NCBI GenBank assembly: GCA_016721005.1
Contig: JADKJM010000016.1
Coordinates: 276,053-340,052 of the forward strand
From: Flavobacteriales bacterium
Lineage (GTDB): Bacteria; Bacteroidota; Bacteroidia; Flavobacteriales_F; PHOS-HE28
Length of the DNA stretch: 64,000 nucleotides
Direction of reading: 5' to 3'
The translations under genes and the position numbers were made by a program. Of the stretch, positions 45,428-63,600 are shown one piece after another (within the stretch, counting starts at the first letter, position 1; the number at the start of each line of letters is the position of its first letter). The notes under the pieces are model-generated. The model had not been told where the DNA came from, did no database searches, and was given only the letters and a program-made list of their open reading frames with translations.

Positions 45428-46990
45428 ATGCGCTTGTCACGAGATCTGTTCTGGTTCGCTGCTTGGGTTGCTCTCCCACCTGGTGTAATAGCCCAAGGAG
45501 CGCTTCCGGATCCACAATTCGGGAACAATGGCTTGGCTGTGGTCCAGAACTACGGGTCATACAATGACATCATCATCAAGCGCATGGACGAGCAGGTGGA
45601 TGGGAAGATCGTGATGATGGGCGACCATCAGATCGGTTCGGAGTTGACCTTGTTCGCTCAACGGTTCAACGCGAACGGCACGATCGATGGTGGATTCGCG
45701 AATGGCGGCCGGTTCTTAGGACCCGACAGTCTTGCGATGGTCGGTGTGAGCAGTGGGCATGCACTTCCTGATGGCAGGCTTCTCCTCGTGTGCCAATACC
45801 GGAATACCACCATAACGCAGCTGGTCCTGGTGATGTTGGACCAGAATGGTGCGCTGGATGCCACCTACGGATCAGGCGGGGTGCGTCGGGAAACGATCGC
45901 CCCCAACACCGCGATCTACCGTTCCATCCGCGCGCCGGACAATTCCATCTACTTCACCGGAATGCAGGGTGCATGGCCGGTGGTAGGCCATGTGCTCCCT
46001 GATGGATCATTCGATCCGGAGTTCGGTACGAATGGCCGGACATTGCTCAACAATGCCCCGTTCAGTTGTTATGCGCGCGATATGGTCTTCTCGGAATCAG
46101 GCTATCTCGTGATCGTATGCCCCCGACTTGCATTCATCAGCCATGGTTGGTGCATGGCAGCCGTGGATCTGCAAGGTGCATTGGTCCCCTGGTTCGGAAC
46201 GAACGGATTCAAGACCATGGACCTCATCGATAATGATCTTGTCGACGAGTATAGCCAACACATCGCCATGCGTCCGGACGGCTCCTTGATCACCTCCGGT
46301 TTGTGGGTGCATGATGGAGCAGGGCACAACATGTATTGGGCCTTCCATCCGGATGGAAGCATCAATGAAGGTTTCGGGAACAATGGCGTGACGGAGGTCC
46401 AGATGGACAATGCCGGCGTTCTCGGCGAAGTGGTGAGCTTGCTGCCCGATGGCGACATCCTGTTCAGCGGCGCTCAATCCAGTTCGAATGGTCTGCTCTG
46501 CAAGACCCGCGTTGTCCGATTGAATGCGGACGGATCCTTCGAAACGGATTTCGGCACCAATGGGATCTACTATCACTATCGACCAGGTGCCATTTTTTCG
46601 CAGGCCGATCGCGGTGGTCTGTTAGCCAACGGAAGATTGGCAGTGGTCGGTGAGATCTCCGCGCCCGGCCCGGTCACCAAGAACGCGATCATGGTCTTCA
46701 ACCTGCAGGACATTTCCACCGGTACTTCGGAAGCATTGAACGGATCGGCCGCTCCGAGCGTCCATCCGAATCCAACGAACGGTACGGTACACCTGCGCGA
46801 TTGGGATCTGGGGCCTTCGGACGAGTTGATCCTTTTTGATGCGCAAGGCCGTCGTCAAGCGCGATGGTCCGGAGCCTTGGTGAATGGCTCAGCACTTGAT
46901 CTACCCGGATATCTTTCCTCGGGTGCCTACACGCTTGTGGTGAATGATCCCGTGGATCGCAAGAGCGCTCGCATCCAGTTGGAGCGCTAG
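45428..46990 (+). CDS. delta-60 repeat protein with T9SS type-A C-terminal sorting domain
   Basis: Signal peptide. Repeated ...NGxLDxxFGxNG units. C-terminal VHPNPTNGTVHLRDWDL...GAYTLVVND...ARIQLER. Confidence 0.6.
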   Translation: MRLSRDLFWFAAWVALPPGVIAQGALPDPQFGNNGLAVVQNYGSYNDIIIKRMDEQVDGKIVMMGDHQIGSELTLFAQRFNANGTIDGGFANGGRFLGPDSLAMVGVSSGHALPDGRLLLVCQYRNTTITQLVLVMLDQNGALDATYGSGGVRRETIAPNTAIYRSIRAPDNSIYFTGMQGAWPVVGHVLPDGSFDPEFGTNGRTLLNNAPFSCYARDMVFSESGYLVIVCPRLAFISHGWCMAAVDLQGALVPWFGTNGFKTMDLIDNDLVDEYSQHIAMRPDGSLITSGLWVHDGAGHNMYWAFHPDGSINEGFGNNGVTEVQMDNAGVLGEVVSLLPDGDILFSGAQSSSNGLLCKTRVVRLNADGSFETDFGTNGIYYHYRPGAIFSQADRGGLLANGRLAVVGEISAPGPVTKNAIMVFNLQDISTGTSEALNGSAAPSVHPNPTNGTVHLRDWDLGPSDELILFDAQGRRQARWSGALVNGSALDLPGYLSSGAYTLVVNDPVDRKSARIQLER

Positions 46991-47250
46991 GGTTCGACGA
47001 TCGTGGGTGGTGATGGATCCTGCGGGGCATCGCGCTTATCCACCACCTCGCTGATGAACCAGGCCAAGAGCACGATCAGCAACAAGGCCATGAACGCCTT
47101 CGGATCCTTGTACAGCGGTTTGCGGTGCATGAGCGAACGCGCGCGCTGGTAGTTGTGCAGCAATTTCCCACTATCGCGATAGCGCGCCAATTCATTGTCC
47201 GTGGGTTCGGGCCCTTGCCCTTGGGGTGATATGCGGTAGCGATGCTTCAT
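46987..47250 (-). CDS. small single-TM protein, putative anti-sigma factor
   Basis: 87 aa. Cytoplasmic N-terminus, one TM helix (AFMALLLIVLLAWFI) and a short Pro-rich tail. It overlaps the ECF sigma gene stop by 4 bp. Confidence 0.4.
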   Translation of the reverse strand: MKHRYRISPQGQGPEPTDNELARYRDSGKLLHNYQRARSLMHRKPLYKDPKAFMALLLIVLLAWFISEVVDKRDAPQDPSPPTIVEP

Positions 47251-47783
47251 GCCCGTGGAACAAGGTAGGTGCGCAGGGTATGGAGGGTACGGTGTACGCG
47301 CATCTTGGCCGCATCCTCGGCCACCCCGATCACTTGGCCGATCTCAGCGAAGCTCATCCCATCCATGTAGCGCAGGTTGATCAAGTGCGCGCGCTCGTCA
47401 TCAAGCTTTCCCATGGCCACTGCCAGGCGGTGCATATCATCATCATCGTAGGCAAGACCCAACTCATCACTGATACCCGCGACCTGGGTATAGCTCAGAT
47501 CGATCAACACCTCCTTGCGCTTGCGCCAGTGCATGCGCAGTTCATTCAAGGCGATGCGATACAACCACGCCCGGAAAGGCAAGCCCCGCGGCTCATACCG
47601 TGGTAGTGCCATCAGCGCTTTCAAGAAGGTCTGCTGTGTGAGGTCCGCAGAAAGTTCCTGATCTCCGGAGCGGCGCTGGATGAAGCGGAAAATGGTCCCG
47701 TGGTAGGCATTGTAGAGCGGGGTGAACGCTTCGGGGTCGGTCTTCGACGCCCGAACGGCTTGTAGTTCTTCTTCCCCGTTCAT
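47247..47783 (-). CDS. ECF-type RNA polymerase sigma-70 factor
   Basis: Sigma-70 region 2 (FLKALMALPRYEPRGLPFRAWLYRIALNE) and region 4 HTH (MDGMSFAEIGQVIGVAEDAAKMRVHRTL). Confidence 0.85.
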   Translation of the reverse strand: MNGEEELQAVRASKTDPEAFTPLYNAYHGTIFRFIQRRSGDQELSADLTQQTFLKALMALPRYEPRGLPFRAWLYRIALNELRMHWRKRKEVLIDLSYTQVAGISDELGLAYDDDDMHRLAVAMGKLDDERAHLINLRYMDGMSFAEIGQVIGVAEDAAKMRVHRTLHTLRTYLVPRA

Positions 47784-47942
47784 CTACCTGTACTGTTCCA
47801 ACCAATGCTGTTCCGCCACGGAAGTAACGCGTTGTCGACGAATATCGGTATCCGCCCGATGAAACCCCTTGGAGCTTATGCCGTTGAAACCGACAACTCT
47901 ACGTGGGCCCGGACAGCCCACGTGCAAACAAGACACCTCAGT

Positions 47943-50900
47943 ATGCCCACTGCTCAACGGCGATCCTTCCAGCTTATCGTACTGTTGACCAGCCTTTGGG
48001 TTGGACAAGAAACTTTTGGCCAGACCTATTCCTGGCAATGGGGAAAAGGCCTGTCAACAAATTCGGATGAGGAGGTGACGGGGGTTGCGACCCAGAGCAC
48101 CACTGGCGATATCTATAGCTGTGGATATACCGAAGGCACGGGGCTCATCAGCGGAAGTGCAGGAACGGTGAGCGGCGTCCAGGACGCATTCCTGTTCAAA
48201 TACAATGCGAGCGGTATCCAACAGTGGGCGTTCACACCTAGCGGTTCTGGTGAAAGCCGGGCCACCGGTGTGGCCCTTGATGACGCCGGGAACGTGTACG
48301 TGACCGGATGGTTCAAGGGAACCATCGATCTCAACGGCCTTTCGGCAGCCGGGTCCGGTACCGTGATCAGTTCGGGGAACGCCGACTGGTTCATCGCGTC
48401 CTACACACCGGCCGGCGCTTTGAGGTGGCGGACCAAATTGGGCGGAAGCGGGAACGACCTTCCCTCCGGTATCGCCTTGTCACCCACCATGGTCGCTGTA
48501 TTCGGAACGGTGAACGGAAGGATCACCACCTCATTCGGCACCATACCCGTGGCCCTACCGAACAACAAGGACAACCTGGCCCTGGTGGGGTATAACCTCA
48601 CAGGTTCCGGCCAATGGCTGATCTCCGGCGGCAGTGGGGATGATGAGATCGCGCACAGCATGACCATGGCTGGCAGCAAGGCACATGTGGCCTATGATAC
48701 CCAACACCCCACATGCAACTGGTATGGAACCAGCGGAACCTTGCTCACCACGCATGTCGCTTCATCCGATCGGCAGCTCCGGGTTTCGACGTTCGCGAAT
48801 ACCGGGGTCCATCTGTGGACCACCTCGGTGGATGAAGCGGGCAACAACATGCTCGGTTCCGCAGGCCTCGCGGCCGGTTGCGATGCATTGTACATCACCG
48901 GTATCACTGCCTCGCCGACCACCTTCCCCGGTGTGGGAAGCATCTCCACAGGAACGAGCGATATGTTCTTCCTCGGCCGGATCGATCCGGTGACCGGGCA
49001 ATACGAATGGGTGACCACAGGCACTTCGACAGGAAGCAGCAATACGACCGGCGGTGCGGCAGTGACCGTCGGGCGCGCCGGTGTGGTGCATGTGATCGGG
49101 AACTACAAGTCCACGGTGACCATCGGGGGCACGACGCTTACCTCCCCGAACACCAAAATGCAGCCGTTCATCGCGACCTTCCGTTCGACCGGGAGCTTCG
49201 TTCGTAGTGAAAAATTCGTGAGCACGCACGATGCCAGAGGGAGCTGCGTCACGGCCGATGCCACCGGGAATTTCGTGATCGGTGGGTCATTCGACACGGA
49301 TCTCTCCTGCGGGTCCCTCACCCTCGCCGGCCCTGGCAACGCCAACGGGTTCATGTACAAGGGCCTGCTGCCATCAGTAGGTGGAGCGGACCTCTCCTAT
49401 TGGGCCCCACCAGCACCGCTATGCTCCAATGCCGCTCCGTTCAACCTTACAAGCCTGCTCACGCCTACCGTAAGCGGAAGCGCCGCTGCGGTGGCGAACT
49501 CCAATAACGTGGTGGGGCCAGGAGGAGCGGTGGGTGCGGTGCAAGGAAGCTACGCGCAATTCAACACGGCGTCCGGGTATGTGACCCTCGATCTCGGTAT
49601 GACGGTCCCGACCGGAACCTACATCAGCGTACTCTGGCGATCCACCGGCGGTTCGGCCACGGCCAACATCACCTCAGGGACCACGGCCAGTCCACCGGCC
49701 AACTCCAACGGTTCCATCACCACCACATCGACCGCTGCCGTGTATAGTGAACTGCAGCTCACGAGTCCCGCCCGGTACATCCGGATCACGCGACCCGCTT
49801 CCGGCAGCGCCACATTCGAAGTGGACGGGATCTATTACAGCTATGGGAACGATCTCGGCGGCACTTGGTCCGGTACCGGCGTCAGCGGATCCACCTTCGA
49901 CCCGGCCGGTCTTGCGGGGAATATCAACGTTACCTACACGGTCGGCAGCGGTTCATGCGCGAGCGCGACCACGAATGCGATCCAGGTGATCGCGGCGCCG
50001 AACGCCGGAACCAATGGCACGCTTTCCACCTGTGCCGCATCGCCGGCCAGCAACCTGTTCCTGCAACTCGGTGGCAGTCCGCAAGCCGGAGGGATCTGGT
50101 CCGGCCCAAGCCCGGTGATCGGTGGGATGTTCAACCCTGCGACGATGGCACCGGGGAACTACGTGTACACGGTGGTTCCCTCCGGCATTTGCTTGGGCAA
50201 TGCCACAGCCACAGTAGTGGTGACGGTGGGGGCTGCACCGGGTGGCGGAACCTTCACGGGTGGTGGTACGGTCTGCCCTGCCCCAGCGAGCGGGACACTT
50301 TCGATATCAGGCCACAGTGGGACGATCACCGGATGGGCCTATTCCATTGATGGCGGCACCAACTGGAACTTGATCAACAACACGGCCAACAACATCACCT
50401 GGACCAACCTCGGCGTACCCACGATGTACAGGGTCGCTTTGAGCCAGGCTGGATGCGGGAACGGTTCAAGCCCGATCGTCTCCCTTACACCACAAGACCT
50501 CAGCATCCCTGTTCTCATCTGCCCTTCAGTAGAACCGGTTGCGACCGCTTATGCCTCCGGCACCTGCACGATGCAGGTTCCATCCTTTGTTGGACAGTAC
50601 ACGGCAAGCGACAACTGCACTGCTGTGCCGACGGTAGCCCAAACACCGGTCGCGGGTTCGTTCATCCCATTCGATGAGGATGTCCAAGTGACGATCCGAG
50701 CTGTTGATGCCGCCGGAAACGTTTCCTCCACCTGCGTGGCCACGATCATCGGTGTGGACACGTTGGCGGCGACCTTCATCTGCCCGGCGAACAGCGTTGT
50801 CTTCGCACCGGCTAATGTTTGCAGCGCCACACATACGGCCAGCCCGATCGCCTATTCGGACAATTGTTGGGGGAATGGAACCGCAGAGAAGACCTATCTC

Positions 50901-53900
50901 CAAGCCGGGGTCGTGAGCATCACCCCGCTATCCACGTTCGATCCTACTGGCTGGACGGAGATCAGCGCGTCGTTGACCGCAACGCTTCCGATCGGCGATC
51001 ATACCATCGCCTTCGTGCATGAGAACGGGGTTGAGGATGTCGCCCTGTGTTCTTACACGGTATCCGTCGTGGACAACGTCGGTCCCACGATCACTTGCCC
51101 GACCGACATAAGCCAGAACACGGATTTCGGGAGCTGTGGAGCGGTAGTGACCTACTCCACACCTGTGGGCACCGACAACTGCGGTGGAGCGACCACGGCA
51201 CGGACAGCCGGACCAGCATCGGGATCCACCTTCCCTGTGGGATCGACCACCGTAACCCACACCGTTACGGATGCCGTTGGCCTCAGCGCCAGTTGCTCCT
51301 TCTCGGTAACGGTGATCGATGCAACAGCACCCACCATCGCATGCCCGTCCGACATCGCGTTGAACGCCGCTGCCGGTGCTTGCGGTGCGGTGGTCACCTA
51401 CAACACGCCCGCTTTTTCTGACAACTGTCCGGGGGCGACGATAACCCGCACCAGCGGCTTGGCCAGTGGATCTTTGTTCCCTGTGGGTACGACGGTGATC
51501 ACCCATGTGGTCACACCGGTTTCAGGCCCTAGCGCCACCTGCACATTCTGGGTAACGGTGTTCGATAACGAGGTACCCGCCCTCACCGGCTGCAACAACG
51601 TATTCGCCAACACGGCAAGCGGTTGCAGCGCGATCGTGAATTTCCCCACCGCATCCGCTACGGACAACTGCACCACCTGTCCGACAGCGGCGCCTGCTGG
51701 CACCGCTTTGCTAGGCACCTACGATGGCCGCACCTATTACCTGAGCAATTCCGCAGCGCGCTGGTCCGTAGCCAACACGGCGGCCACCAATGCGGGTGGA
51801 CACTTGGCCGTAGTCCGCAATGCGGCGATGAACACTTGGCTACGCGACGCGGTTACCGTTGTGGCGCCGACGGCCGGATTCTGGATCGGCCTGAACGATG
51901 CGGGTGCGGAAGGCACGTTTCGATGGATCAACAGCGCAGCCACGGGCTACCTGCCATGGGACGTCGGGGAGCCGAATAGCGCTGGTGGGAATGAGGACTA
52001 TGTTGAAGTGAAGGTGAATGGTTCTTGGAATGATGAGAAGAACACAACCAGCAGACGCTATGTCGTGGAGGTAGAAGCAACCTGCCTTGCCCCGCAACTC
52101 ATTTCCGGCCAACCCAGTGGTAGCGCTTTTCCTGTTGGTACGACCGCCGTGCAGTACATGAGCACGGATGCAGCTGGCAACTCGAACACGTGCGCGTTCA
52201 ACATCACGGTCACCGACAATAGCGACCCCACCATCACCTGCCCTGCTGCGATGAACGTGAACGCCAACAGCGGTTGCACCGCGACCGGTGTGGCGCTCGG
52301 TTCACCGGTGACCGCCGACAACTGCGGCGTGGCTTCGGTGACCAACAACGCGCCTGCTTCCTTCCCGATCGGTGTGACCACCGTGACCTGGACTGTGACC
52401 GACAACGCTGGACGCACCGCGACCTGCGCGCAGACCGTGACCGTGACGGACAACGTCGATCCGACCATCGTATGTCCTGCTGCGGTGAATGTGTTCACCA
52501 ACAGCGGTTGCACTGCGACCGGGGTGGCGCTCGGAACGCCGGTGACCGCCGACAACTGCGGTGTGGCATCGGTGACCAACAACGCTCCTGCTTCCTTCCC
52601 GATCGGTGTGACCACCGTGACCTGGACTGTGACCGACAACGCTGGACGCACCGCGACCTGCGCGCAGACCGTGACCGTGACGGACAACGTCGATCCGACC
52701 ATCGTATGTCCTGCTGCGGTGAACGTGTTCACCAACAGCGGTTGCACTGCGACCGGGGTGGCGCTCGGAACGCCTGTGACCGCCGACAACTGCGGTGTGA
52801 CTTCAGTGACCAACAACGCTCCTGCTTCCTTCCCGATCGGTGTGACCACCGTGATCTGGACCGTGACCGACAACAGCGGACGCACTGCGACTTGCGCCAG
52901 ACGGTGACCGTCACCGACAACGTCGATCCGACGATCGTATGTCCTGCTGCGGTGAATGTGTTCACCAACAGCGGTTGCACTGCGACCGGGGTGGCGCTCG
53001 GAACGCCGGTGACCGCCGACAACTGCGGTGTGGCATCGGTGACCAACAACGCTCCTGCTTCCTTCCCGATCGGTGTAACCACCGTGACCTGGACTGTGAC
53101 CGACAACGCTGGACGTACCGCTACCTGCGCGCAGACCGTGACCGTGACGGACAACGTCGATCCGACCATCGTATGTCCTGCTGCGGTGAACGTGTTCACC
53201 AACAGCGGTTGCACTGCGACCGGTGTGGCCCTCGGTTCGCCGGTGACCGCCGACAACTGCGGTGTGGCATCGGTGACCAACAACGCTCCTGCTTCCTTCC
53301 CGATCGGTGTAACCACCGTGACCTGGACTGTGACCGACAACGCTGGACGTACCGCTACCTGCGCGCAGACCGTGACCGTGACGGACAACGTCGATCCGAC
53401 CATCGTATGTCCTGCTGCGGTGAATGTGTTCACCAACAGCGGTTGCACTGCGACCGGGGTGGCGCTCGGAACGCCTGTGACCGCCGACAACTGCGGTGTG
53501 GCTTCGGTGACCAACAACGCGCCTGCCTCCTTCCCGATCGGTGCGACCACCGTGATCTGGACCGTGACCGACAACAGCGGACGCACTGCGACTTGCAGCC
53601 AGACGGTGACCGTGACGGACAACGTTGATCCGACCATCGTATGTCCTGCTGCGGTGAATGTGTTCACCAACAGCGGTTGCACCGCGACGGGTGTTGCTCT
53701 CGGTACGCCTGTGACCGCCGACAACTGCGGCGTGATATCAGTGACCAACAACGCTCCTGCTTCCTTCCCGATCGGTGCGACCACCGTGATCTGGACCGTG
53801 ACCGACAACAGCGGACGCACTGCGACTTGCAGCCAGACGATGACCGTGACGGACAACGTTGATCCGACCATCGTATGTCCTGCTGCGGTGAATGTGTTCA

Positions 53901-56900
53901 CCAACAGCGGTTGCACTACGACCGGGGTGGCGCTCGGAACGCCTGTGACCGCCGACAACTGCGGCGTGATATCAGTGACCAACAACGCTCCTGCTTCCTT
54001 CCCGATCGGTGCGACCACCGTGACCTGGACTGTGACCGACAACGCTGGACGTACCGCTACCTGCGCGCAGACCGTGACCGTGACGGACAACGTCGATCCG
54101 ACCATCGTATGTCCTGCTGCGGTGAATGTGTTCACCAACAGCGGTTGCACTGCGACCGGTGTGGCGCTCGGTTCACCGGTGACCGCCGACAACTGCGGCG
54201 TGGCTTCGGTGACCAACAACGCGCCTGCTTCCTTCCCGATCGGTGTGACCACCGTGACCTGGACTGTGACCGACAACGCTGGACGCACCGCGACCTGCGC
54301 GCAGACCGTGACCGTGACGGACAACGTCGATCCGGACCATCGTATGTCCTGCTGCGGTGAATGTGTTCACCAACAGCGGTTGCACTGCGACCGGGGTGGC
54401 GCTCGGAACGCCTGTGACCGCCGACAACTGCGGTGTGGCTTCGGTGACCAACAACGCGCCTGCCTCCTTCCCGATCGGTGCGACCACCGTGATCTGGACC
54501 GTGACCGACAACAGCGGACGCACTGCGACTTGCAGCCAGACGGTGACCGTGACGGACAACGTTGATCCGACCATCGCATGTCCTGCTGCGGTGAATGTGT
54601 TCACCAACAGCGGTTGCACCGCGACGGGTGTTGCTCTCGGTACGCCTGTGACCGCCGACAACTGCGGCGTGATATCAGTGACCAACAACGCTCCTGCTTC
54701 CTTCCCGATCGGTGCGACCACCGTGATCTGGACCGTGACCGACAACAGCGGACGCACTGCGACTTGCAGCCAGACGATGACCGTGACGGACAACGTTGAT
54801 CCGACCATCGTATGTCCTGCTGCGGTGAATGTGTTCACCAACAGCGGTTGCACTACGACCGGGGTGGCGCTCGGAACGCCTGTGACCGCCGACAACTGCG
54901 GCGTGATATCAGTGACCAACAACGCTCCTGCTTCCTTCCCGATCGGTGCGACCACCGTGACCTGGACTGTGACCGACAACGCTGGACGTACCGCTACCTG
55001 CGCGCAGACCGTGACCGTGACGGACAACGTCGATCCGACCATCGTATGTCCTGCTGCGGTGAATGTGTTCACCAACAGCGGTTGCACTGCGACCGGTGTG
55101 GCGCTCGGTTCACCGGTGACCGCCGACAACTGCGGCGTGGCTTCGGTGACCAACAACGCGCCTGCTTCCTTCCCGATCGGTGTGACCACCGTGACCGGAC
55201 TGTGACCGACAACGCTGGACGCACCGCGACCTGCGCGCAGACCGTGACCGTGACGGACAACGTCGATCCGACCATCGTATGTCCTGCTGCGGTGAATGTG
55301 TTCACCAACAGCGGTTGCACTGCGACCGGGGTGGCGCTCGGAACGCCGGTGACCGCCGACAACTGCGGTGTGGCATCGGTGACCAACAACGCTCCTGCTT
55401 CCTTCCCGATCGGTGTGACCACCGTGACCTGGACTGTGACCGACAACGCTGGACGCACCGCGACCTGCGCGCAGACCGTGACCGTGACGGACAACGTCGA
55501 TACGACCATCGTATGTCCTGCTGCGGTGAATGTGTTCACCAACAGCGGTTGCACTGCGACCGGTGTGGCGCTCGGAACGCCTGTGACCGCCGACAACTGC
55601 GGCGTGGCATCGGTGACCAACAATGCACCTGCTTCCTTCCCGATCGGTGTGACCAGCGTGATCTGGACCGTGACCGATAACAGCGGACGCACTGCGACTT
55701 GCAGCCAGACGGTGACCGTGGCCGACAACGTCGATCCGACGATCGTGTGTCCGGCTGCGGTGAACGTGTTCACCAACAGCGGTTGCACTGCGACCGGGGT
55801 GGCGCTCGGAACGCCTGTGACCGCCGACAACTGCGGTGTGGCTTCGGTGACCAACAACGCGCCTGCCTCCTTCCCGATCGGTGTGACCACCGTGATCTGG
55901 ACCGTGACCGACAACGCTGGACGCACCGCTACTTGCAACCAGACTGTGACCGTGACGGATCTGGACACCGATGGCGATGGAACAAGTGACTGTTTGGACG
56001 GTTGCCCCAACGACCCCAACAAGGTGGCACCTGGCATCTGCGGTTGCGGCATCGCGGAGGGGTCTTGTCAGGATTGTCTTGGAGTTCCGTTCGGCCCTGC
56101 TGTCATCGGTTCAAGCTGCAACGACGGCAACGCTTCAACCGGCAACGATGTGTACCAGGCCAACTGTGCTTGCGCTGGTCAACAAATCGATTGCCTCGGC
56201 GTGGCCGGTGGTTCTGCACTGATCGGTACTGCGTGTGATGACGGCAACGCTTCAACCGGCAACGATATCTATCAAGCCAACTGCGCCTGCGCTGGTCAAC
56301 TCATCGATTGCCTCGGCGTGGCTGGTGGTACCGCGCTGATCGGAACGCCGTGCAACGATGGCAACGCTTCAACCGGTAACGACATCTTCCAACTCGATTG
56401 CTCGTGCGCCGGTCAGCTCATCGACTGTATCGGCGTGGCGGGTGGCACTGCGTTGATCGGTACTGCTTGCGACGATGGCAATGCTTCAACCGGCAACGAT
56501 GTGTACCAGGCCAACTGCGCCTGCGCAGGTCAACTCATTGATTGCCTCGGGGTCGCTGGTGGAACTGCGTTGATCGGTACTGCTTGTGATGATGGCAACG
56601 CTTCGACCGGCAACGATGTGTACCAGGCCAACTGCTCCTGCGCGGGTCAACTCATCGATTGCCTTGGTGTCGCTGGTGGAACTGCACTGATCGGAACTCC
56701 GTGCAACGATGGCATTGCTTCGACCGGCAACGACATGTTCCTGTTGGATTGCTCGTGCGCGGGTCAGCTCATCGATTGCCTTGGTGTGGCCGGTGGCGCT
56801 GCGCTGATCGGAACTGCGTGCAACGACGGCAACGCTTCGACCGGCAACGATGTGTATCAAGCCAACTGCGCCTGCGCTGGCCAACTCATCGATTGCCTCG

Positions 56901-59900
56901 GGGTCGCTGGTGGAACTGCGTTGATCGGTACTGCTTGTGATGATGGCAACGCTTCGACCGGCAACGATGTGTACCAGGCCAACTGCGCCTGCGCAGGTCA
57001 ACTCATTGATTGCCTCGGGGTCGCTGGTGGAACTGCGTTGATCGGTACTGCTTGTGATGATGGCAACGCTTCGACCGGCAACGATGTGTACCAGGCCAAC
57101 TGCTCCTGCGCGGGTCAACTCATCGATTGCCTTGGTGTCGCTGGTGGAACTGCACTGATCGGAACTCCGTGCAACGATGGCATTGCTTCGACCGGCAACG
57201 ACATGTTCCAGTTGGATTGCTCGTGCGCGGGTCAGCTCATCGATTGCCTTGGCGTGGCCGGTGGTACTGCGTTGATCGGAACTCCTTGCAACGATGGCAA
57301 CGCTTCAACCGGCAACGATGTGTACCAGGCCAACTGCTCCTGCGCGGGTCAACTCATCGATTGCCTTGGTGTCGCTGGTGGAACTGCACTGATCGGAACT
57401 CCGTGCAACGATGGCAATGCTTCGACCGGCAACGACATGTTCCAGTTGGATTGCTCGTGCGCGGGTCAACTCATCGATTGCCTTGGCGTGGCTGGTGGTA
57501 CTGCGTTGATCGGAACCGCGTGCAACGATGGCAACGCTTCAACCGGCAACGATGTGTACCAGGCCAACTGCGCTTGCGCTGGTCAACTCATCGACTGCCT
57601 TGGTGTGGCCGGTGGTGCTGCGTTGATCGGAACTCCTTGCAACGATGGCAATGCTTCGACCGGCAACGACATGTTTCAGTTGGATTGCTCGTGTGCGGGT
57701 CAACTCAACGATTGCCTCGGGGTCGCTGGTGGCACTGCGCTGATCGGAACTCCTTGCAACGACGGCAACGCTTCAACAGGCAACGACATGTTCCAGTTGG
57801 ATTGTTCCTGCGCGGGTCAGCTCATCGATTGCCTCGGGGTCGCTGGTGGTGCTGCGTTGATCGGAACTCCTTGCAACGATGGCAATGCTTCAACAGGCAA
57901 CGATCTCTATCAAGCCAACTGCGCCTGCGCCGGTCAACTCATTGATTGCCTCGGTGTGGCCGGTGGAACTGCGCTGATCGGAACCGCTTGCAACGATGGC
58001 AACGCTTCAACCGGCAACGATCTCTATCAGGCCAACTGCGCTTGCGCGGGGCAGCTCATCGATTGCATTGGTGTGGCCGGTGGTTCTGCGCTGATCGGAA
58101 CGCCGTGCAACGATGGCAACGCTTCGACCGGCAACGACATGTTCCAGTTGGATTGCTCGTGCGCTGGCCAACTCATCGATTGCCTTGGGGTCGCGGGTGG
58201 AACTGCGCTGATCGGAACGCCGTGCAACGATGGCAACGCTTCGACCGGCAACGATGTGTACCAAGCCAACTGTGCTTGCGCTGGCCAGCTCATCGATTGC
58301 CTTGGCGTCGCTGGTGGCACCGCATTGATCGGAACTCCGTGCAACGACAACAATGCTTCTACCGGCAACGATGTGTACCTGGCCAACTGTGCTTGCGCTG
58401 GCCAACTCATCGATTGCCTTGGCGTGGCCGGTGGTGCTGCACTGATCGGAACTCCTTGCAACGACAACAACGCTTCGACCGGCAACGACATGTTCCAATT
58501 GGATTGCGCCTGCGCTGGCCAACTCATCGATTGCCTCGGTGTGGCCGGTGGAACTGCGCTGATCGGAACCGCTTGCAACGATGGCAACGCTTCGACCGGC
58601 AACGATGTGTACCAGGCCAACTGTGCTTGCGCTGGTCAACTCATTGATTGCATTGGTGTCGCTGGTGGAACTGCACTGATCGGAACTCCGTGCAACGATG
58701 GCATTGCTTCGACCGGCAACGACATGTTCCAGTTGGATTGCTCGTGCGCGGGTCAGCTCATCGATTGCCTTGGTGTGGCCGGTGGTGCTGCGTTGATCGG
58801 AACTCCTTGCAACGATGGCAACGCTTCAACCGGTAACGATGTGTACCAGGCCAACTGCGCCTGCGCCGGTCAACTCATCGATTGCCTTGGTGTGGCCGGT
58901 GGCACTGCGCTGATCGGAACGCCGTGCAACGACGGCAATGCGATGACCATAAACGACCTATGGAGTGCGAATTGCGCATGCGCCGGCACCCCGGTCACGT
59001 GTACGAGCGAAGCCGGTCCGGATCAAACGATCTGCGGCACGATCGCTCAACTGAACGCATCCGGCAACGGAAGTTGGAGCGTGACACCGGGCATCTCGTT
59101 CAGCGCGATGACCAACCCGCTAGCGACCATCACAGCGAGCACTTCCGGCACTTACCAGTTGATCTGGACGGTCGTTGTTGGAGCATGCAGCGCTGCCGAT
59201 ACAGCGACGGTGACCTTCCATCCGCAATCAGATGCTTCCTTCTCCTTTGGCCAGTCGACCTACTGCGCGACCAGCATGTCACCAACCCCATGGGCAGCTG
59301 ATCTGAACGGCAGCTTCAGCGCTACCCCGAATGGCCTTGTTCTGAATACTGCGGATGGATCCATAGATCCCGCAGCGAGCGCACCGGGCACCTATACCAT
59401 CACCCATTCGATCAGTGGGGATTGTCCGGCGATGGCGACACAGACTGTCACGATCGTTGCAGGCGCGAATGCGGATTGGAACATGCCCGACCCGATCTGC
59501 GACAACGCGATCGCTATCGAGTTGAACAACCTGGTCACCGGCGATCTCGGTGGAACATGGTCCGGTCAAGGTGTGATCGGTTCGCAATTCAACCCGACGA
59601 ATTTGAGCGGGGGCATCCCGGTCACCTACACGGTATCCATCGGGGGCTGCCAAGCGCAATCCACACAGTTGGTCCACGTGATCGCTTCACCGATCGCCAA
59701 TGCCGGCCCGGATGCATCCGTGTGCGGCAGAGACTTCGTGCTCGGCGCGATCCCCTCCAATGGAACGGGTTCATGGAGTGTACCTGTGGGCATCTCCATC
59801 AACTCGAGTGCAAGCGATCCGAACGCGCAGATCAGCGCTTCATCCTATGGAACGTACACCATGATCTGGAGCGTGACCAATGGGTCATGCACATCAACGG

Positions 59901-60445
59901 ATATGGTCAGCATCACCTTCCTCGATCCCAACCTGGGTCTGTGGGTGAACGCCGGTCCGGACCAATTCCTGGAGGTGCTATCCAACACCGAGTTGCAGGG
60001 CGATGCCACGCAAGGTGCGAACCTGTCATGGTGGGTGCTTTCCGGATCGGCTACCATCAGTTCACCATCCGATGCCGCGACCGGTATCAGCGGGTTGGGC
60101 ATCGGCGACAACCTGGTGATCCTTTCCGCCAGCATGGGCATCTGCGCCTCCATCAGCGATACTGTGCTGATCCACGTGGATGACCTCTTCATCCCGGAAG
60201 GCTATTCGCCCAATGGTGATGGCGTGAATGATACATGGTACATCACCGGCATGTTGGCCTACCCGGGAAGTGAATTGAAAGTGTTCAATCGCTGGGGTCA
60301 GTTGGTGTACGACACCGGGGGCTATGCCAACGAGTGGGACGGCCACGCCAACAACGGCCGACAGCTCCCGGATGACACCTATTTCTATGTCCTGAACTTA
60401 AAAGGTGAGCGCGCGTACAACGGTCACGTTATTATAAAAAGGTGA
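47943..60445 (+). CDS. giant multi-repeat cell-surface adhesin (about 4,167 codons) with C-terminal T9SS type-B (CHU_C / gliding-motility-associated) domain; reading frame interrupted by three single-base indels (about 52895, 54335, 55195)
   Basis: Signal peptide at 47943. SBBP-like propeller repeats (48.0-49.4 kb), divergent HYR domains (50.5-51.65 kb), C-type lectin domain (51.7-52.08 kb). 16 x 234-bp HYR tandem repeats (52217-55960). 25 x 117-bp Cys-rich repeats (56073-58990). Ig-like segments, then FIPEGYSPNGDGVNDTW...YFYVLNLKGERAYNGHVIIKR at the C-terminus. The four ORF-track pieces (47805..52907, 52274..54565, 54357..55205, 54812..60445) join exactly at the indel sites. Confidence 0.75.
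51700..52080 (+). other. C-type lectin domain with EPN motif inside the adhesin
   Basis: GFWIGLNDAGAEGTFRWINSAATGYLPWDVGEPNSAGGNEDYVEVKVNGSWNDEKN. Classic CTLD WIGL...W...EPN...WND spacing, including the long-loop Ca/carbohydrate-site residues. Confidence 0.65.
52217..55960 (+). repeat. 16 tandem near-identical 234-bp (78-aa) HYR-domain repeats
   Basis: Unit DNVDPTIVCPAAVNVFTNSGCTATGVALGTPVTADNCGVASVTNNAPASFPIGVTTVTWTVTDNAGRTATCAQTVTVT repeated with only a few substitutions. The period is confirmed by 234-bp spacing of the ORF-track fragments. Confidence 0.85.
56073..58990 (+). repeat. about 25 tandem 117-bp (39-aa) four-cysteine repeats of unrecognised type
   Basis: Unit DCLGVAGGTALIGTPCNDGNASTGNDVYQANCACAGQLI (variants MFQLDCSC, IASTGND). 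Four invariant Cys per unit. Confidence 0.8.
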
Positions 60446-61362
60446 ATCCGATCAAGGGCATTCTTGCGATCACCGCCATCGCCATTGCGGCACTGGCACA
60501 GGGGCAACATACGCCCCTGACCAGCCATTACCTGTTCAATGGATTGGTGATCAACCCGGCCTACGCCGGTAGCAGGGATGCGCTTACCGCTACCCTGACC
60601 CACCGCCAACAATGGGTGGGTTTCGATGGTGCACCGATCACCCAGACCATAAGCATTCACGCCCCGGTGAGCCGCTCTAAAGTGGGCCTTGGCCTGCTCA
60701 TCTTCAATGACCGTATCGGGGTGAGCAACGAAACCGGGGTGCTCTCGAACTATTCCTATCGGCTCCGGTTCCCGAATGGCAAATTATCTCTTGGCATCGG
60801 CGCCGGATTTACTGTTCTGCGTGCCGATTGGTCACGCGTGAGCATCCAGGACCAGAACGATCCTTCATTCGCCGGTTTCACACGCGGCGCCATCCGGCCG
60901 AACTTCAGTACGGGTGCGTACTACTACACGAAGACCTGGTACATCGGGGCTTCCATGCCCTTCGCGCTCATCCATCAATACGACGACGGTGGTGGCTACA
61001 ACATCTCGAACGAACGGTTCAACCTGCAACCCATGATCACGGGAGGGCATGTCTTCCCGATCAATGATGACTTCAAATTGAAACCGACCGCTTTGATCCG
61101 TTACCGGATGGACAGCGGCATTCAAGGTGACATCAGTTCGAACGTGATCTACAAGGACAAGGTCTGGGGCGGTATCTCCTATCGCACGGGTGATGCGCTG
61201 GTCGGATCGGTGGAAGTGCTTCCCACGCCGCAATGGCGGATCGGGTACGCCTATGATCTCGGTCTTTCCGCCATCCGGCCTTACCACAGCGGTTCGCATG
61301 AATTGCTGGTCCAATATGAATTCGGATATCGTTTGCGGGTGCGTGACCCGCGCTACTTCTAA
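60442..61362 (+). CDS. PorP/SprF-family type IX secretion system membrane protein
   Basis: GTG start overlaps the adhesin stop (GTGA). Signal peptide, then HYLFNGLVINPAYAGS (PorP/SprF N-terminal signature) and a beta-barrel-like remainder ending in an aromatic residue. Confidence 0.8.
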   Translation: MNPIKGILAITAIAIAALAQGQHTPLTSHYLFNGLVINPAYAGSRDALTATLTHRQQWVGFDGAPITQTISIHAPVSRSKVGLGLLIFNDRIGVSNETGVLSNYSYRLRFPNGKLSLGIGAGFTVLRADWSRVSIQDQNDPSFAGFTRGAIRPNFSTGAYYYTKTWYIGASMPFALIHQYDDGGGYNISNERFNLQPMITGGHVFPINDDFKLKPTALIRYRMDSGIQGDISSNVIYKDKVWGGISYRTGDALVGSVEVLPTPQWRIGYAYDLGLSAIRPYHSGSHELLVQYEFGYRLRVRDPRYF

Positions 61363-61365
61363 GCG

Positions 61366-63600
61366 ATGAGGCCGTTCTGGTCCATAGCACTCCTGTTCAT
61401 CCTGCCATTCACGGCCGGAGCGCAATACATCCATGAGGTTCGCGCGCTTGACGTGCGCCCGACCGGCGAGGACTACGCACCCGTGTTCCAGGACAGCGGG
61501 TTCGTGATGGTCTCTGTCCGGGAGTCGAGTGCCGTGATCGGTTTCAAGGATGCGGAAACGGACAAGCCTCTTTCCGATCTGTACTGGGTACCGTTCAAGG
61601 ATGGGGTTTGTGGACAGCCCGTACTATTCAGCCAGAACCTGACCACACCGGTGAATGAAGGCCCAGCCGCGTTCACCAACGGTGGCAAGACCATTTGCTT
61701 CACACGGAACCAAGTGCTGCCGAAGAAGCTCTCGAACATGCGCGGAGCGAGCGCACAACTCGGACTGTTCTTCTCCGAATTGCAGAATGGCATGTGGTCC
61801 GCTCCAACGCCTTTTGCGCACAACGATCCCAAATACTCCATCATGCATCCGACCTTCAGCATGGACGGGCGCACGATGTACTTCGCCAGCGATATTCCAG
61901 GAGGTGTTGGAGGAATGGATCTCTATCGCAGCATGAAGACCGCCGCTGGATGGTCGAAGCCGGAATCATTGGGCCCGGAAGTGAACACCGTCGCGAACGA
62001 GGTCTTCCCACGGATGAATGCCGATGGCACCTTGGCCTTCGCTAGCGACCGCACAGGTGGACTAGGAAAGCTCGACATCTATTTGACCCGTGAGCGGGAC
62101 GGCCACTGGGATCTTCCGGAGGCATTGCCAGCACCGATCAACAGCCCGGCCAATGATCACGGCTATTCGTTGATGCCCGACGGCTACTCGGCGTTGTTCA
62201 CCTCGAACAGGACAGGTATCGATGCGATCCACTTCGTCAAGCGGACCATTCCGAAATTCCAGGATTGCACCGAGCAACAGCGGAACAACTACTGCTATGC
62301 CTTCAGCCGTAGGCCACACATGGCCACCAGTTCGATCCCGGTGGATCATGTGTGGGACATGGGTGACGGAACGATGATCAAAGGCTACCAAGCGCAGCAT
62401 TGCTACACCGCACCGGGCAACTACACCGTTCGCTCCCTTCTCGTTGATCGGAAAACCGGGGCGGTCTTCTACGCCTTGAGCTCGAATGACCTTGTGGTCG
62501 CGGACATCAAACAGGTGTGGGTCAATGCACAGGATACCGTTCGCACTGGTCGCGCGCTGGAACTGATCGGCACCACCGGTTTCCTCGCGGACATCGATCC
62601 CGGTGAATACCAATGGGACTTCGGCGATGGATCCACGCACGAGGGCTCCCGATTGAACCACGTGTTCAAACAAGCAGGGGTGTATGAAGTGAAGCTGGAT
62701 GTGATCTCCAAACCGGGACCACAAGGAGTACTGGCTCACCAGTGCAACTCCAAGAAGATCATCGTGATCGATCGGTTCAAGGATCAAGAGGACATGGCCG
62801 TAGTGGCGGTCTATCAGGATGCATTGGGTAAGAATCATTCCTTCGAATACCAGGAACTGCCGTTCGACCACACCGAACTCGAGGGCGAGGCACTCACCGA
62901 TGTGGTGTTCTCGGTCCAGCTTTTCGCAAGCAAGGAAAGGATCGATCTGGACGATGCACGGTTCATCGCCATCAAGAAGCAATTCCGGGTGATCGAACGT
63001 TTCGATCCCGAACTTGGAGTTTATACCTACTCCGTGGGCGAGACGAAGAATGTGGAAGAACTCTACCAAGTGTTCCGCAAGGTGAAGGATCTTCAATTCC
63101 TCGATGCAGAGGTCTTCGCATTACGCGAGGAGAAACTGATGGACCTGAGCCAGCTGAACCTTTCCGCCCTGGAGGATCTGAACCACAAAAAGCTCCGGAC
63201 CAGTGCCATCCATTTTGCATACAAGAGCGCGGCACTTGAGCCGGGTTCCGAAGTCGTCCTTGATCAGATCACAGGCTTGATGCGCCAGCACCCCGAATTG
63301 CAATTGGTGATCGAGGCGCATACCGATGACATCGGCAGCCGCCAATACAACATCGAGCTTTCCCAACAGCGCGCTGCCTCGGTGGTGGAGTACCTCGCCG
63401 GTCAGCAAGTCGCGGATGAGCGCCTCCTGCCCATCGGCCATGGCAAGAACCAACCGATCGCCAGCAACAAGACCGAAGAAGGTCGCAGCTTGAACCGCCG
63501 CGTGGAATTCCGCATGGTGGTGAAAGGCGATGCGCCGAAAGCCGGTACCGAGTTAACCGGTATTCCTGCACCTCGCTCGGTCAAGTCGGCGAAGCCCTGA
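61366..63600 (+). CDS. OmpA-family protein with TolB-like beta-propeller and PKD-like regions
   Basis: Signal peptide MRPFWSIALLFILPFTAGAQ. TolB/WD40-like repeats. PKD-like segment (WDMGDGTMIKGYQAQHCYTAPGNYTV). C-terminal OmpA domain (TDDIGSRQYNIELSQQRAASVVEYL...NRRVEF). Confidence 0.8.
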   Translation: MRPFWSIALLFILPFTAGAQYIHEVRALDVRPTGEDYAPVFQDSGFVMVSVRESSAVIGFKDAETDKPLSDLYWVPFKDGVCGQPVLFSQNLTTPVNEGPAAFTNGGKTICFTRNQVLPKKLSNMRGASAQLGLFFSELQNGMWSAPTPFAHNDPKYSIMHPTFSMDGRTMYFASDIPGGVGGMDLYRSMKTAAGWSKPESLGPEVNTVANEVFPRMNADGTLAFASDRTGGLGKLDIYLTRERDGHWDLPEALPAPINSPANDHGYSLMPDGYSALFTSNRTGIDAIHFVKRTIPKFQDCTEQQRNNYCYAFSRRPHMATSSIPVDHVWDMGDGTMIKGYQAQHCYTAPGNYTVRSLLVDRKTGAVFYALSSNDLVVADIKQVWVNAQDTVRTGRALELIGTTGFLADIDPGEYQWDFGDGSTHEGSRLNHVFKQAGVYEVKLDVISKPGPQGVLAHQCNSKKIIVIDRFKDQEDMAVVAVYQDALGKNHSFEYQELPFDHTELEGEALTDVVFSVQLFASKERIDLDDARFIAIKKQFRVIERFDPELGVYTYSVGETKNVEELYQVFRKVKDLQFLDAEVFALREEKLMDLSQLNLSALEDLNHKKLRTSAIHFAYKSAALEPGSEVVLDQITGLMRQHPELQLVIEAHTDDIGSRQYNIELSQQRAASVVEYLAGQQVADERLLPIGHGKNQPIASNKTEEGRSLNRRVEFRMVVKGDAPKAGTELTGIPAPRSVKSAKP

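What the first reader, a model, noticed from the sequence alone, without database searches (positions are those of the whole stretch)
47943..60445. Approximately 4,170-aa modular adhesin combining SBBP propeller, HYR domains, an EPN C-type lectin, 16 identical HYR repeats, 25 copies of an unrecognised Cys repeat and a CHU_C T9SS tail
Single gene, although currently broken by three one-base indels. Its architecture is: signal peptide, then a propeller, then divergent HYR domains, then a CTLD, then a long identical HYR array, then a four-Cys module array, then Ig-like segments, then a type-B sorting domain. The combination of eukaryote-like adhesion modules (HYR, C-type lectin) on a T9SS-delivered stalk suggests a carbohydrate-binding surface filament used for attachment to eukaryotic or polysaccharide surfaces, or for gliding. 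I do not recognise this exact architecture.
Basis: partly seen in the sequence, partly recalled or inferred. Interest (0 to 1): 0.7.

Follow-up and report, generated by a model that had tools for sequence, protein, structure and literature searches.

The report
Giant lectin-bearing T9SS surface adhesin
This is one very long gene for a repeat-built surface adhesin of an uncultured wastewater Flavobacteriales bacterium; it belongs to an ordinary class of protein, but it has a sugar-binding C-type lectin domain inserted inside another domain and carries a cysteine-rich repeat that no database describes.

Summary
Window 47943-60445 (+) encodes one 4,167-aa protein once three 1-nt indels in the HYR array are repaired. 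An intact 3,476-aa ortholog in a sister genome shows it is a single gene.

Confirmed parts:
- signal peptide
- SBBP-like propeller (below the Pfam threshold, supported elsewhere)
- HYR domains
- an EPN/WND C-type lectin domain (CTLD)
- 16 HYR units that are near-identical, not identical
- 25 units of a 39-aa four-Cys module
- a full CHU_C type-B sorting domain

The next two genes are PorP/SprF and a PorE/OmpA-like protein. [quoted passage not shown] It favours a static adhesin over a gliding one.

New details:
- The CTLD is inserted inside an HYR domain. The same nested arrangement recurs in three other Bacteroidota proteins, one with QPD instead of EPN. It is absent from every sister-strain assembly that covers the site.
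- Repeat copy numbers differ between strains.
- The Cys module has no Pfam, NCBIfam or PDB match but about 1,800 relatives, mainly in uncultured Flavobacteriales.

The frameshifts are probably long-read assembly errors, but this is not proven.

Verdict: a new member of a known kind; moderate interest.

The parts
47943..48023 (+). Start codon and Sec-type signal peptide (MPTAQRRSFQLIVLLTSLWVGQETFGQ)
   Evidence: Read directly from the sequence: a basic n-region followed by a hydrophobic core. It is conserved in the sister assemblies. No dedicated signal-peptide predictor was run.
48024..49382 (+). N-terminal SBBP-like beta-propeller head
   Evidence: Pfam SBBP scores 17.6 bits, below the 20.5 cut-off. 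NCBIfam SBBP lipoprotein model gives E 4.6e-16. PDB sequence matches to propellers (Bagel designs, 'Cell surface protein', CylK) reach E 7e-10. Homologs of this region carry PF06739.
49383..50507 (+). Unassigned beta-rich region, then Cys-containing modules with a GGTWSG...TYTV motif ('Ig-like' is unproven)
   Evidence: No Pfam, NCBIfam or PDB match. About 94% identical at the DNA level to the sister strains.
50508..51572 (+). Two degenerate and two canonical divergent HYR domains
   Evidence: Pfam HYR E 6.7e-34. My own HYR HMM maps the domains to mature aa 856-1046 and 1048-1210. From about 51050 onward there is no DNA match in the sister assemblies.
51591..51671 (+). N-terminal half of a split HYR domain (ends ...ATDNC)
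   Evidence: Weak match to HYR HMM positions 6-43. It aligns with the uninterrupted HYR of the sister orthologs.
51672..52085 (+). C-type lectin domain inserted into the HYR domain. It has EPN...E...WND Ca2+/sugar ligands, no internal Cys, and flanking Cys residues (TTC...EATC)
   Evidence: Pfam Lectin_C 53 bits. PDB sequence matches to DEC-205, SP-D, DC-SIGN and MBP at E 1e-10 to 1e-20. A gapless alignment to SP-D puts EPN/ED/WND in register. AF2 core pLDDT is 82-95. Foldseek TM-score (normalised to target length) is 0.7-0.89 against CTLD crystal structures. Among all fetched loci it is present only in the window.
52086..52220 (+). C-terminal half of the split HYR domain
   Evidence: HYR HMM positions 45-77, scoring 37.0 bits on the 250-aa segment and 32.2 bits on the full protein.
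52224..55960 (+). Array of 16 near-identical 78-aa HYR units (234 nt). It includes a 4-unit (936-nt) higher-order duplication and the three 1-nt indels (after 52895, at 54334, after 55196)
55958..56074 (+). Thrombospondin-type-3-like acidic linker (DLDTDGDGTSDC...GICGCG)
   Evidence: Read directly. TSP_3 (Pfam) is annotated on proteins that share this stretch or the Cys repeat. There was no significant Pfam hit on this copy itself.
56075..58999 (+). 25 tandem 39-aa four-Cys modules (C-x13-C-x15-C-x-C), an unclassified repeat family
59000..60190 (+). C-terminal Cys-containing beta-rich modules (putative Ig-like, unassigned)
   Evidence: Only a sub-threshold Ig-like hit. 96.6% DNA identity to the sister strains.
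60191..60445 (+). CHU_C / T9SS type-B sorting domain and stop codon
   Evidence: PF13585 at 92 bits covering profile positions 3-84 of 86. TIGR04131 at 69 bits covering 3-85 of 85.
60442..61362 (+). PorP/SprF-family outer-membrane protein, the predicted cognate shuttle and anchor. Its GTG start overlaps the adhesin's TGA stop (GTGA)
   Evidence: TIGR03519 at 250 bits. Overlap read directly. The arrangement is conserved in all sister loci.
61366..63600 (+). PorE/CHU_0125-like OmpA-family protein with PKD domains and an OmpA_C peptidoglycan-binding domain
   Evidence: NCBIfam CHU_0125_OmpA E 1e-68 and T9SS_PorE E 7e-61, both below the equivalog cut-offs. Pfam PKD and OmpA on the identical sister protein.

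Best explanation
The locus encodes a single giant cell-surface adhesin (4,167 aa after repair) of an uncultured activated-sludge Flavobacteriales bacterium.

Proposed pathway:
- The protein is exported by Sec.
- Its type-B C-terminal domain carries it across the outer membrane through the type IX secretion system.
- It is handed to the PorP/SprF-like barrel encoded by the overlapping downstream gene.
- That barrel is tied to peptidoglycan by the adjacent PorE/OmpA-like protein. The adhesin is therefore a fixed fibre, not a mobile one.

The C-terminus is at the membrane. The 25 four-Cys modules and the 16+ HYR domains therefore form a long stalk. My rough estimate is on the order of 100 nm if extended. 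The stalk holds the N-terminal head away from the cell. The head consists of an SBBP-like propeller, unassigned beta modules, and a Ca2+-dependent EPN-type (mannose/GlcNAc/glucose/fucose class) C-type lectin looped out of an HYR domain. Its predicted role is to bind glycans on flocs, exopolysaccharide or other cells.

The head-proximal cassette and the repeat numbers vary between close lineages, as expected for a surface adhesin.

The three frameshifts are most likely consensus errors of a long-read assembly inside near-identical repeats, not real inactivation.

Shown here: domain identities, gene order, an intact ortholog, strain differences. Inferred: secretion, anchoring mode, sugar class, adhesion, and the frameshifts being errors.
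For: - One ORF results after repairing three 1-nt indels.
- The ortholog is intact at 3,476 aa in GCA_016705955.1. Another assembly has a different single frameshift, inside the Cys array.
- CHU_C and TIGR04131 match over their full length.
- PorP/SprF scores 250 bits and has a 4-nt GTGA overlap with the adhesin's stop. A PorE/OmpA-like gene starts 4 nt after PorP ends.
- PMC9143113 reports that type-B cargo binds PorP-like proteins. [quoted passage not shown] PMC12618676 reports that type-B cargo needs its cognate PorP/SprF shuttle.
- The CTLD is supported by Pfam (53 bits), by PDB collectin and DC-SIGN matches, by a gapless EPN/E/WND register with SP-D, and by a confident AF2 core with TM-scores up to 0.89 to CTLD crystal structures.
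- EPN, the acidic residue and WND are conserved across bacterial relatives.
- For the frameshifts being errors: the two copies of a 936-nt higher-order duplication differ by 2 indels and only 1 substitution. The sister assembly's contig names are typical of a long-read assembler. Short-read assemblies break inside these repeats.
Against: - There are no reads, transcripts or proteomics, so real pseudogenisation in this strain cannot be excluded.
- None of the three indels lies in a long homopolymer, the classic long-read error site.
- The 16-unit HYR array is seen only in this assembly (about 4 units in the sisters). Its copy number could therefore be an assembly product.
- Sugar binding is predicted from motifs only. 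This CTLD lacks the canonical internal disulfides.
- The nested HYR halves were modelled with low confidence (pLDDT below 50).
- The OmpA-family neighbour is below NCBIfam's PorE equivalog cut-off.
- Nothing in the window shows whether the organism glides.
Confidence: 0.62

Rival explanations
1. The gene is a real pseudogene in this strain. The frameshifts are genuine mutations, and only a roughly 1,650-aa N-terminal fragment without a sorting domain could be made.
For: - The deposited annotation treats the pieces as separate proteins. MBL0128548.1 is 1,654 aa.
- None of the three indels is in a long homopolymer.
- The sister lineage carries a much shorter HYR array, so a large array may be dispensable.
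Against: - All three indels lie in the only region where short-read polishing cannot work.
- They nearly compensate each other (-1, +1, -1). All downstream domains remain stop-free in their own frame for more than 5 kb.
- Recently duplicated copies differ by 2 indels and 1 substitution, an error-like ratio.
- A different assembly of the sister strain has its own single indel elsewhere in the repeats, while a third assembly is intact.
Confidence: 0.2
2. It is a mobile gliding-motility adhesin like SprB, propelled along the cell surface.
For: - It has a type-B CTD and an adjacent PorP/SprF-like gene, as for sprB-sprF (PMC9143113).
- It is a very long repetitive filament.
- Homologs are annotated 'gliding motility-associated C-terminal domain-containing protein'.
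Against: - A PorE/OmpA-like gene follows porP. PMC9143113 notes that sprB-sprF lacks such a neighbour and proposes that PorP-PorE pairs hold non-mobile cargo.
- No SprB-repeat (PF13573) match was found.
- No gld genes were seen among the window ORFs I scanned.
Confidence: 0.1
3. Part of the architecture is an assembly artefact. The 16-unit array, the Cys copy number, or the CTLD-bearing cassette could be a collapsed, expanded or chimeric join between strains or paralogs.
For: - Copy numbers differ sharply from two other assemblies: 16 against about 4 HYR units, and 25 against 34-35 Cys units.
- The array contains an almost exact 936-nt duplication.
- The CTLD cassette has no counterpart in any sister contig.
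Against: - The window lineage is a distinct population, about 95.7% identical in the flanks, so real differences are expected.
- The cassette joins in frame at domain boundaries.
- The CTLD sits at exactly the same position inside an HYR domain (after ...DNC, with flanking Cys) in three independent proteins from other genomes. A chimeric join would not reproduce that.
Confidence: 0.15
4. It is not mainly an adhesin. It is a glycan- or particle-capture device for feeding, or a defensive or anti-predator surface coat.
For: - The lectin and propeller head could bind soluble or particulate polysaccharide.
- Relatives of the Cys module occur with an M43 peptidase domain, with GEVED and with Fib_succ_major domains.
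Against: - No catalytic or transport domain is present in the protein or its operon.
- The fixed cell-wall-tethered stalk architecture is typical of adhesins.
- This reading overlaps with the main explanation rather than excluding it.
Confidence: 0.1

Closest known systems
[quoted passage not shown]
   Same: [quoted passage not shown] The predicted anchoring is non-covalent, through PorP to peptidoglycan.
   Different: The cargo here is about 4,170 aa and has a completely different passenger (propeller, HYR, CTLD, Cys repeats). The OmpA-family partner carries PKD domains and scores below the PorE equivalog cut-off. No experimental evidence exists.
SprB-SprF of Flavobacterium johnsoniae
   Same: A giant repetitive type-B CTD surface filament encoded upstream of its PorP-like partner.
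   Different: No SprB repeats are present and a PorE-like gene is. The prediction here is a static protein rather than one propelled along the cell. The head is lectin-bearing.
RemA of F. johnsoniae (a T9SS-secreted mobile cell-surface lectin; from my own knowledge, not checked here)
   Same: A T9SS-delivered adhesin whose binding module is a eukaryote-like lectin domain.
   Different: As I recall, RemA has a SUEL/rhamnose-binding lectin domain and a different class of CTD. Here the lectin is a C-type (EPN) domain nested inside an HYR domain.
Animal collectin and DC-SIGN-type C-type carbohydrate-recognition domains (SP-D, MBP, CL-K1, CD23, DC-SIGN)
   Same: Same fold (TM-score 0.7-0.89). Same EPN...E...WND Ca2+-site-2 ligand set in a gapless register.
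   Different: There are no internal disulfides. A Cys pair flanks the insertion point instead. There is no coiled-coil neck. The domain is embedded as an insertion in an HYR domain of a bacterial fibre.
HYR (hyalin repeat, PF02494) arrays in bacterial 'HYR domain-containing' or 'gliding motility-associated C-terminal domain' proteins of Flavobacteriales
   Same: The same domain family and the same general SBBP-HYR-...-CHU_C layout. Head regions are 54-82% identical in P0289-P0293.
   Different: This copy has a 16-unit near-identical array, a CTLD-split HYR, and a 25-unit Cys-module array.

Membership tests
T9SS type-B cargo | C-terminal type-B sorting domain (CHU_C PF13585 / TIGR04131) at the extreme C-terminus | tested here: met
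   PF13585 at 92.1 bits (cut-off 27), profile positions 3-84 of 86. TIGR04131 at 69.1 bits (cut-off 35), positions 3-85 of 85, ending at the last residue.
T9SS type-B cargo | N-terminal Sec signal peptide | tested here: met
   By inspection only: MPTAQRRSFQLIVLLTSLWVGQETFGQ has a basic n-region and a hydrophobic core. It is conserved in the sister strains. No predictor was available.
T9SS type-B cargo | Genetically linked cognate PorP/SprF-family gene | tested here: met
   TIGR03519 at 250 bits for 60442-61362. There is a 4-nt overlap with the cargo's stop codon. The arrangement is conserved in six sister loci.
T9SS type-B cargo | T9SS-dependent secretion and surface localisation | not testable with these tools
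   This needs genetics or proteomics in an uncultured organism.
Non-mobile PorP-PorE-tethered cargo (model of PMC9143113) | porE-like (OmpA_C peptidoglycan-binding) gene next to the porP-like gene | tested here: met
   61366-63600 matches CHU_0125_OmpA at E 1e-68 and T9SS_PorE at E 7e-61, both below the equivalog cut-offs. Strong matches to OmpA_C-containing models cover aa 613-716. The assignment is therefore family-level only.
SprB-like gliding adhesin | SprB repeats (PF13573) and no porE-like neighbour | tested here: not met
   No PF13573 hit in any segment at E up to 0.1. A PorE-like neighbour is present.
HYR domain (PF02494) | Match above Pfam's gathering score | tested here: met
   116.5 and 132.2 bits against a cut-off of 21.7. 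My own HMM maps 16 full array units, 2 canonical units, 1 split unit and 2 degenerate units.
C-type lectin-like domain (PF00059) | Sequence match above the gathering score, and the CTLD fold | tested here: met
   53 bits against a cut-off of 22.6. AF2 core pLDDT 82-95. Foldseek E about 1e-9 and TM-score (normalised to target length) up to 0.89 against DC-SIGNR, CD23, SP-D and MBP.
C-type lectin-like domain (PF00059) | Ca2+-site-2 / sugar ligands: EPN (mannose-type) or QPD, an acidic residue, and WND | tested here: met
   A gapless alignment pairs GEPNSAGGNEDYVEVKVNGSWND with SP-D's [23 protein letters not shown]. These positions are invariant or nearly so among bacterial relatives.
C-type lectin-like domain (PF00059) | Two conserved intradomain disulfides of canonical animal CTLDs | tested here: not met
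   There is no Cys between TTC (start) and EATC (end) of the insert. Only flanking Cys residues are present. Several bacterial relatives also lack them at these positions.
C-type lectin-like domain (PF00059) | Ca2+-dependent carbohydrate binding | not testable with these tools
   This needs recombinant protein and a glycan array.
SBBP beta-propeller (PF06739) | Match above Pfam's gathering score | tested here: inconclusive
   17.6 bits against a cut-off of 20.5. Support comes from the NCBIfam SBBP lipoprotein model at E 4.6e-16, PDB propeller hits at E 7e-10, and homologs annotated with PF06739.
Any described Cys-rich repeat family (the Pfam and NCBIfam libraries as a whole, which should include EGF, TSP, LNR and Dictyostelium-repeat models, and PDB chains), for the 39-aa module | Significant sequence or fold match | tested here: not met

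The most novel reading that the evidence does not exclude
Two reusable building blocks in this protein may be undescribed.

(1) The 39-residue C-x13-C-x15-C-x-C beta-hairpin module may be a new disulfide-rich fold. It would act as a stalk element in T9SS surface proteins of uncultured Flavobacteriales.

(2) The 'CTLD looped out of an HYR domain' composite may be a cassette whose sugar-specificity motif varies between lineages: EPN here, QPD in P0291, and absent in the sister strain. That would make it a bacterial system for varying the glycan target at the tip of an otherwise conserved fibre.
Probability: 0.4. Interest if true: 0.5.

Novelty: new member of a known kind. Interest (0 to 1): 0.36.

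Why it matters
Uncultured Flavobacteriales are common in activated sludge and lakes. How they attach to flocs, filaments or eukaryotes is largely unknown.

This locus gives a concrete, testable candidate: a cell-wall-tethered, lectin-tipped fibre with a predicted mannose-class specificity. It also shows that close lineages differ in whether the lectin is present and in stalk length.

It flags a repeat family of about 1,800 clusters that has no database model. It also flags a domain-in-domain arrangement (CTLD inside HYR) that annotation pipelines report only as two separate hits.

Finally, it is a cautionary example. Long-read MAG assemblies split such genes into several 'proteins', which hides their architecture in protein databases.

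Tried and rejected
- AF2 of the nested HYR-CTLD module. The CTLD core was confident, but both HYR halves had pLDDT below 50. The nesting therefore rests on sequence alignments, not on a model.
- I scanned JGI metagenome contigs for the sequence around indel 3, in either the in-frame or the frameshifted form. There were zero matches of either kind, so the scan was uninformative.
- Literature searches for HYR with T9SS, for bacterial C-type lectins in Flavobacteria, and for the source BioProject gave nothing specific.
- I considered phase variation or programmed frameshifting and rejected both. The three sites have no simple-sequence tract and no shared motif.
- I considered a link between the indels and methylation motifs. 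One indel deletes the T of CCTGG, one lies 2 nt after GATC, and the sister assembly's indel deletes the C of GATC. This is post hoc and untested, so I kept it only as a note.
- The hits are all short fragments. I first read this as widespread breakage of such genes. The tool returns hits of only about 0.56-1.75 times the query length, so that sample is biased and I did not use it as evidence.
Full report
**1. What is in the sequence**

On the + strand between 47.8 and 60.4 kb, four long ORFs alternate between two reading frames: 47805-52907, 52274-54565, 54357-55205 and 54812-60445. Tandem Repeats Finder reports two arrays:
- 52242-55959: period 234 nt, 15.9 copies, 92% matches, score 6124.
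- 56117-58938: period 117 nt, 24.1 copies, 83% matches, score 3334.

Aligning the 234-nt units shows three units of aberrant length, 233, 235 and 233 nt. The causes are three single-base indels:
- an A missing after 52895 (TTGC^GCCAG, against TTGCAGCCAG in the other units of the same variant)
- an extra G at 54334 (GATCCGGACC, against GATCCGACC)
- a T missing after 55196 (GACC^GGACT, against GACCTGGACT)

Repairing them yields one stop-free ORF. It is 4,213 codons from the ATG at 47805, or 4,167 aa from the ATG at 47943. The second start precedes a typical signal sequence, MPTAQRRSFQLIVLLTSLWVGQETFGQ.

**2. Domain map (mature numbering, Met at 47943 = 1)**

| Residues | Assignment |
|---|---|
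| 1-27 | signal peptide |
| 28-480 | SBBP-like propeller |
| 481-855 | unassigned beta-rich, Cys-containing modules (no family match) |
| 856-1046 | two degenerate HYR-like domains |
| 1048-1210 | two canonical HYR domains (Pfam E 6.7e-34) |
| 1217-1243 | N-terminal half of an HYR domain |
| 1244-1381 | C-type lectin domain (Pfam 53 bits) |
| 1382-1426 | C-terminal half of the same HYR domain |
| 1428-2673 | 16 tandem HYR units |
| 2673-2711 | thrombospondin-type-3-like acidic linker |
| 2712-3686 | 25 units of a 39-aa module, C-x13-C-x15-C-x-C, spaced exactly 39 aa |
| 3687-4083 | unassigned Cys-containing modules |
| 4084-4167 | CHU_C / TIGR04131 type-B sorting domain, matched end to end |

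For the propeller, Pfam SBBP is sub-threshold at 17.6 against 20.5 bits. The NCBIfam SBBP lipoprotein model gives E 4.6e-16. PDB propellers match at E 7e-10. Homologs of this region carry PF06739.

The HYR units are near-identical, not identical. Identity is 87-100% at the amino-acid level, with 10 distinct sequences among the first 15 units. Units 5-8 and 9-12 form an almost exact 936-nt duplication.

**3. Source and relatives**

Exact-sequence look-up shows that the flanking proteins and the first ORF are deposited as MBL0128545-552. The first ORF is 'HYR domain-containing protein', 1,654 aa. All come from a 742-kb contig of a 'Flavobacteriales bacterium' MAG.

Neighbouring genes led to sister assemblies. 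The flanks are about 95.7% identical to the window.
- In GCA_016705955.1 the ortholog is a single intact 3,476-aa ORF from HYR to CHU_C. The pieces in the window are therefore one gene. The isolate is EsbE_18-Q3..., and its contig names are typical of a long-read assembler.
- In GCA_964269035.1 the ortholog is split once (2,017 + 1,470 aa). The cause is a 1-nt deletion in a Cys unit.
- All short-read contigs stop inside the repeats.

The sister gene has only about 4 array HYR units but 34-35 Cys units.

Identity along the gene is mosaic:
- 94% DNA identity over the first 2.46 kb
- 84% over the next 0.65 kb
- no match for 51.05-52.24 kb
- 96.6% over the last 1.5 kb of the gene, after the arrays

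**4. The lectin**

The CTLD is found in the window only, not in any of the sister contigs that cover the site. In the sisters, the corresponding HYR domain is uninterrupted.

In the window, the CTLD is inserted immediately after the conserved ...DNC of an HYR domain. The rest of that HYR resumes after ...EVEATC. My own HMM places HYR positions 6-43 before the insert and positions 45-77 after it; the second half scores 37 bits.

The same nested arrangement occurs in three independent proteins:
- P0078, from a Bacteroidota MAG: 40% identity, 99% coverage.
- P0076.
- P0291, from a Flavobacteriales MAG. Its head is 54% identical over 1,060 aa. It carries QPD...WDD instead of EPN...WND.

The CTLD matches collectins, DC-SIGN, CD23 and the mannose receptor by sequence at E 1e-10 to 1e-20. 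It aligns without gaps to SP-D across GEPN-x5-ED-x10-WND. These positions are invariant or nearly so in bacterial relatives. The AF2 core is confident, with pLDDT 82-95. It superposes on CTLD crystal structures with TM-scores of 0.7-0.89.

The domain has no internal cysteines. AF2 did not resolve the flanking HYR halves.

**5. The Cys module**

No Pfam, NCBIfam or PDB-sequence match exists at any permissive threshold.

A profile search of 1.84 billion representative proteins finds 1,768 members at E up to 1e-3, and 910 at E up to 1e-10. In ten members scanned, the repeat is never covered by a Pfam model. It co-occurs with T9SS type-A tails, TSP_3, PKD, GEVED, HYR, M43 peptidase and Fib_succ_major domains.

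Among GTDB species representatives, at least 524 loci encode it. Almost all of the 80 best loci returned are uncultured Flavobacteriales MAGs from sludge and lakes, with a few Chitinophagales, Saprospiraceae and Cryomorpha. Several loci occur per genome.

**6. Context and mechanism**

The adhesin's TGA stop overlaps the GTG start of a PorP/SprF-family gene (250 bits). An OmpA_C-containing, PorE/CHU_0125-like gene starts 4 nt after that gene ends. The order is conserved in all sister loci.

Published work shows that type-B cargo binds and depends on its cognate PorP-like protein. It proposes that cargo whose porP-like gene is paired with a porE-like gene is non-mobile and tethered to peptidoglycan, unlike SprB-SprF (PMC9143113, PMC12618676).

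I therefore infer the following:
- The protein is exported by Sec and then by the T9SS.
- It is held at its C-terminus by PorP and the PorE-like protein.
- The Cys modules and HYR domains form a stalk.
- The stalk presents the propeller and the EPN lectin distally for Ca2+-dependent glycan binding.

Secretion, anchoring, sugar class and adhesion are all inferences.

**7. Are the frameshifts real?**

Evidence for assembly error:
- All indels lie in near-identical repeats, where short-read polishing fails.
- Duplicated copies differ by 2 indels and 1 substitution.
- Different assemblies of the sister strain are intact or are broken at a different place.
- Every downstream frame stays open.

Evidence against:
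- The indel sites are not homopolymers.
- No reads were available.
- A metagenome scan for either allele found nothing.

I put the probability of a true pseudogene at about 0.2.

**8. Verdict**

The system is a new member of the known class of giant type-B T9SS adhesins with PorP/PorE partners.

Two features appear to be undescribed in the libraries searched: the HYR-nested CTLD cassette, with lineage-specific presence and a variable sugar motif, and the 39-aa four-Cys repeat family.

Noticed in passing
window 47247-47783 (-) and 46987-47250 (-): An ECF-type sigma-70 factor (TIGR02937, 82 bits) is transcribed divergently from the adhesin, 159 nt upstream of its start. It is followed by an 87-aa ORF with no family match, possibly an anti-sigma factor. 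The pair is conserved in all sister loci. It could regulate the adhesin operon.
   Followed up: partly
window 42895-45393 (+) and 45428-46990 (+): Two tandem delta-60-repeat (TIGR02608 / DUF5122) proteins. The second has a weak T9SS type-A sorting tail (19.6 bits, cut-off 23). This is another secreted-protein pair directly upstream.
   Followed up: no
window 63697-64000 (+); L001/L002 13276-17870: The window ends in the start of a second type-B cargo. In the sister loci this is 1,169 aa with DUF7948, PKD and CHU_C, followed by its own 362-aa PorP/SprF gene. The region is therefore a tandem cluster of cargo-shuttle modules.
   Followed up: partly
window 55194-55198 and 54329-54335; CAX sister gene nt ~5930-5948: Three of the four indels seen across assemblies touch classic methylation motifs. 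One deletes the T of CCTGG. One adds a G 2 nt after GATC. The sister assembly's indel deletes the C of GATC. This may reflect systematic long-read basecalling errors at methylated sites. It is post hoc and untested.
   Followed up: partly
P0291 aa ~1060-1215 (Flavobacteriales MAG protein): A homologous adhesin carries the same HYR-nested CTLD but with QPD...WDD in place of EPN...WND. This suggests that the lectin's sugar-specificity motif diversifies within the family.
   Followed up: partly
L037, L038, L049, L052, L070, L080 (one MAG, JADKHI01): A single uncultured Flavobacteriales genome holds at least six separate loci encoding the four-Cys repeat. The module is heavily reused within genomes.
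   Followed up: no
window 630-2216 (-): A 528-aa ORF gives a sub-threshold match to a DmsE-family decaheme cytochrome model (E 2.5e-9, 37 bits against a cut-off of 192). A multihaem-like protein would be somewhat unexpected in a Flavobacteriales genome.
   Followed up: no
window 33906-35642 (-): A 578-aa protein with a T9SS type-A sorting tail (30.8 bits) and no other assigned domain.
   Followed up: no
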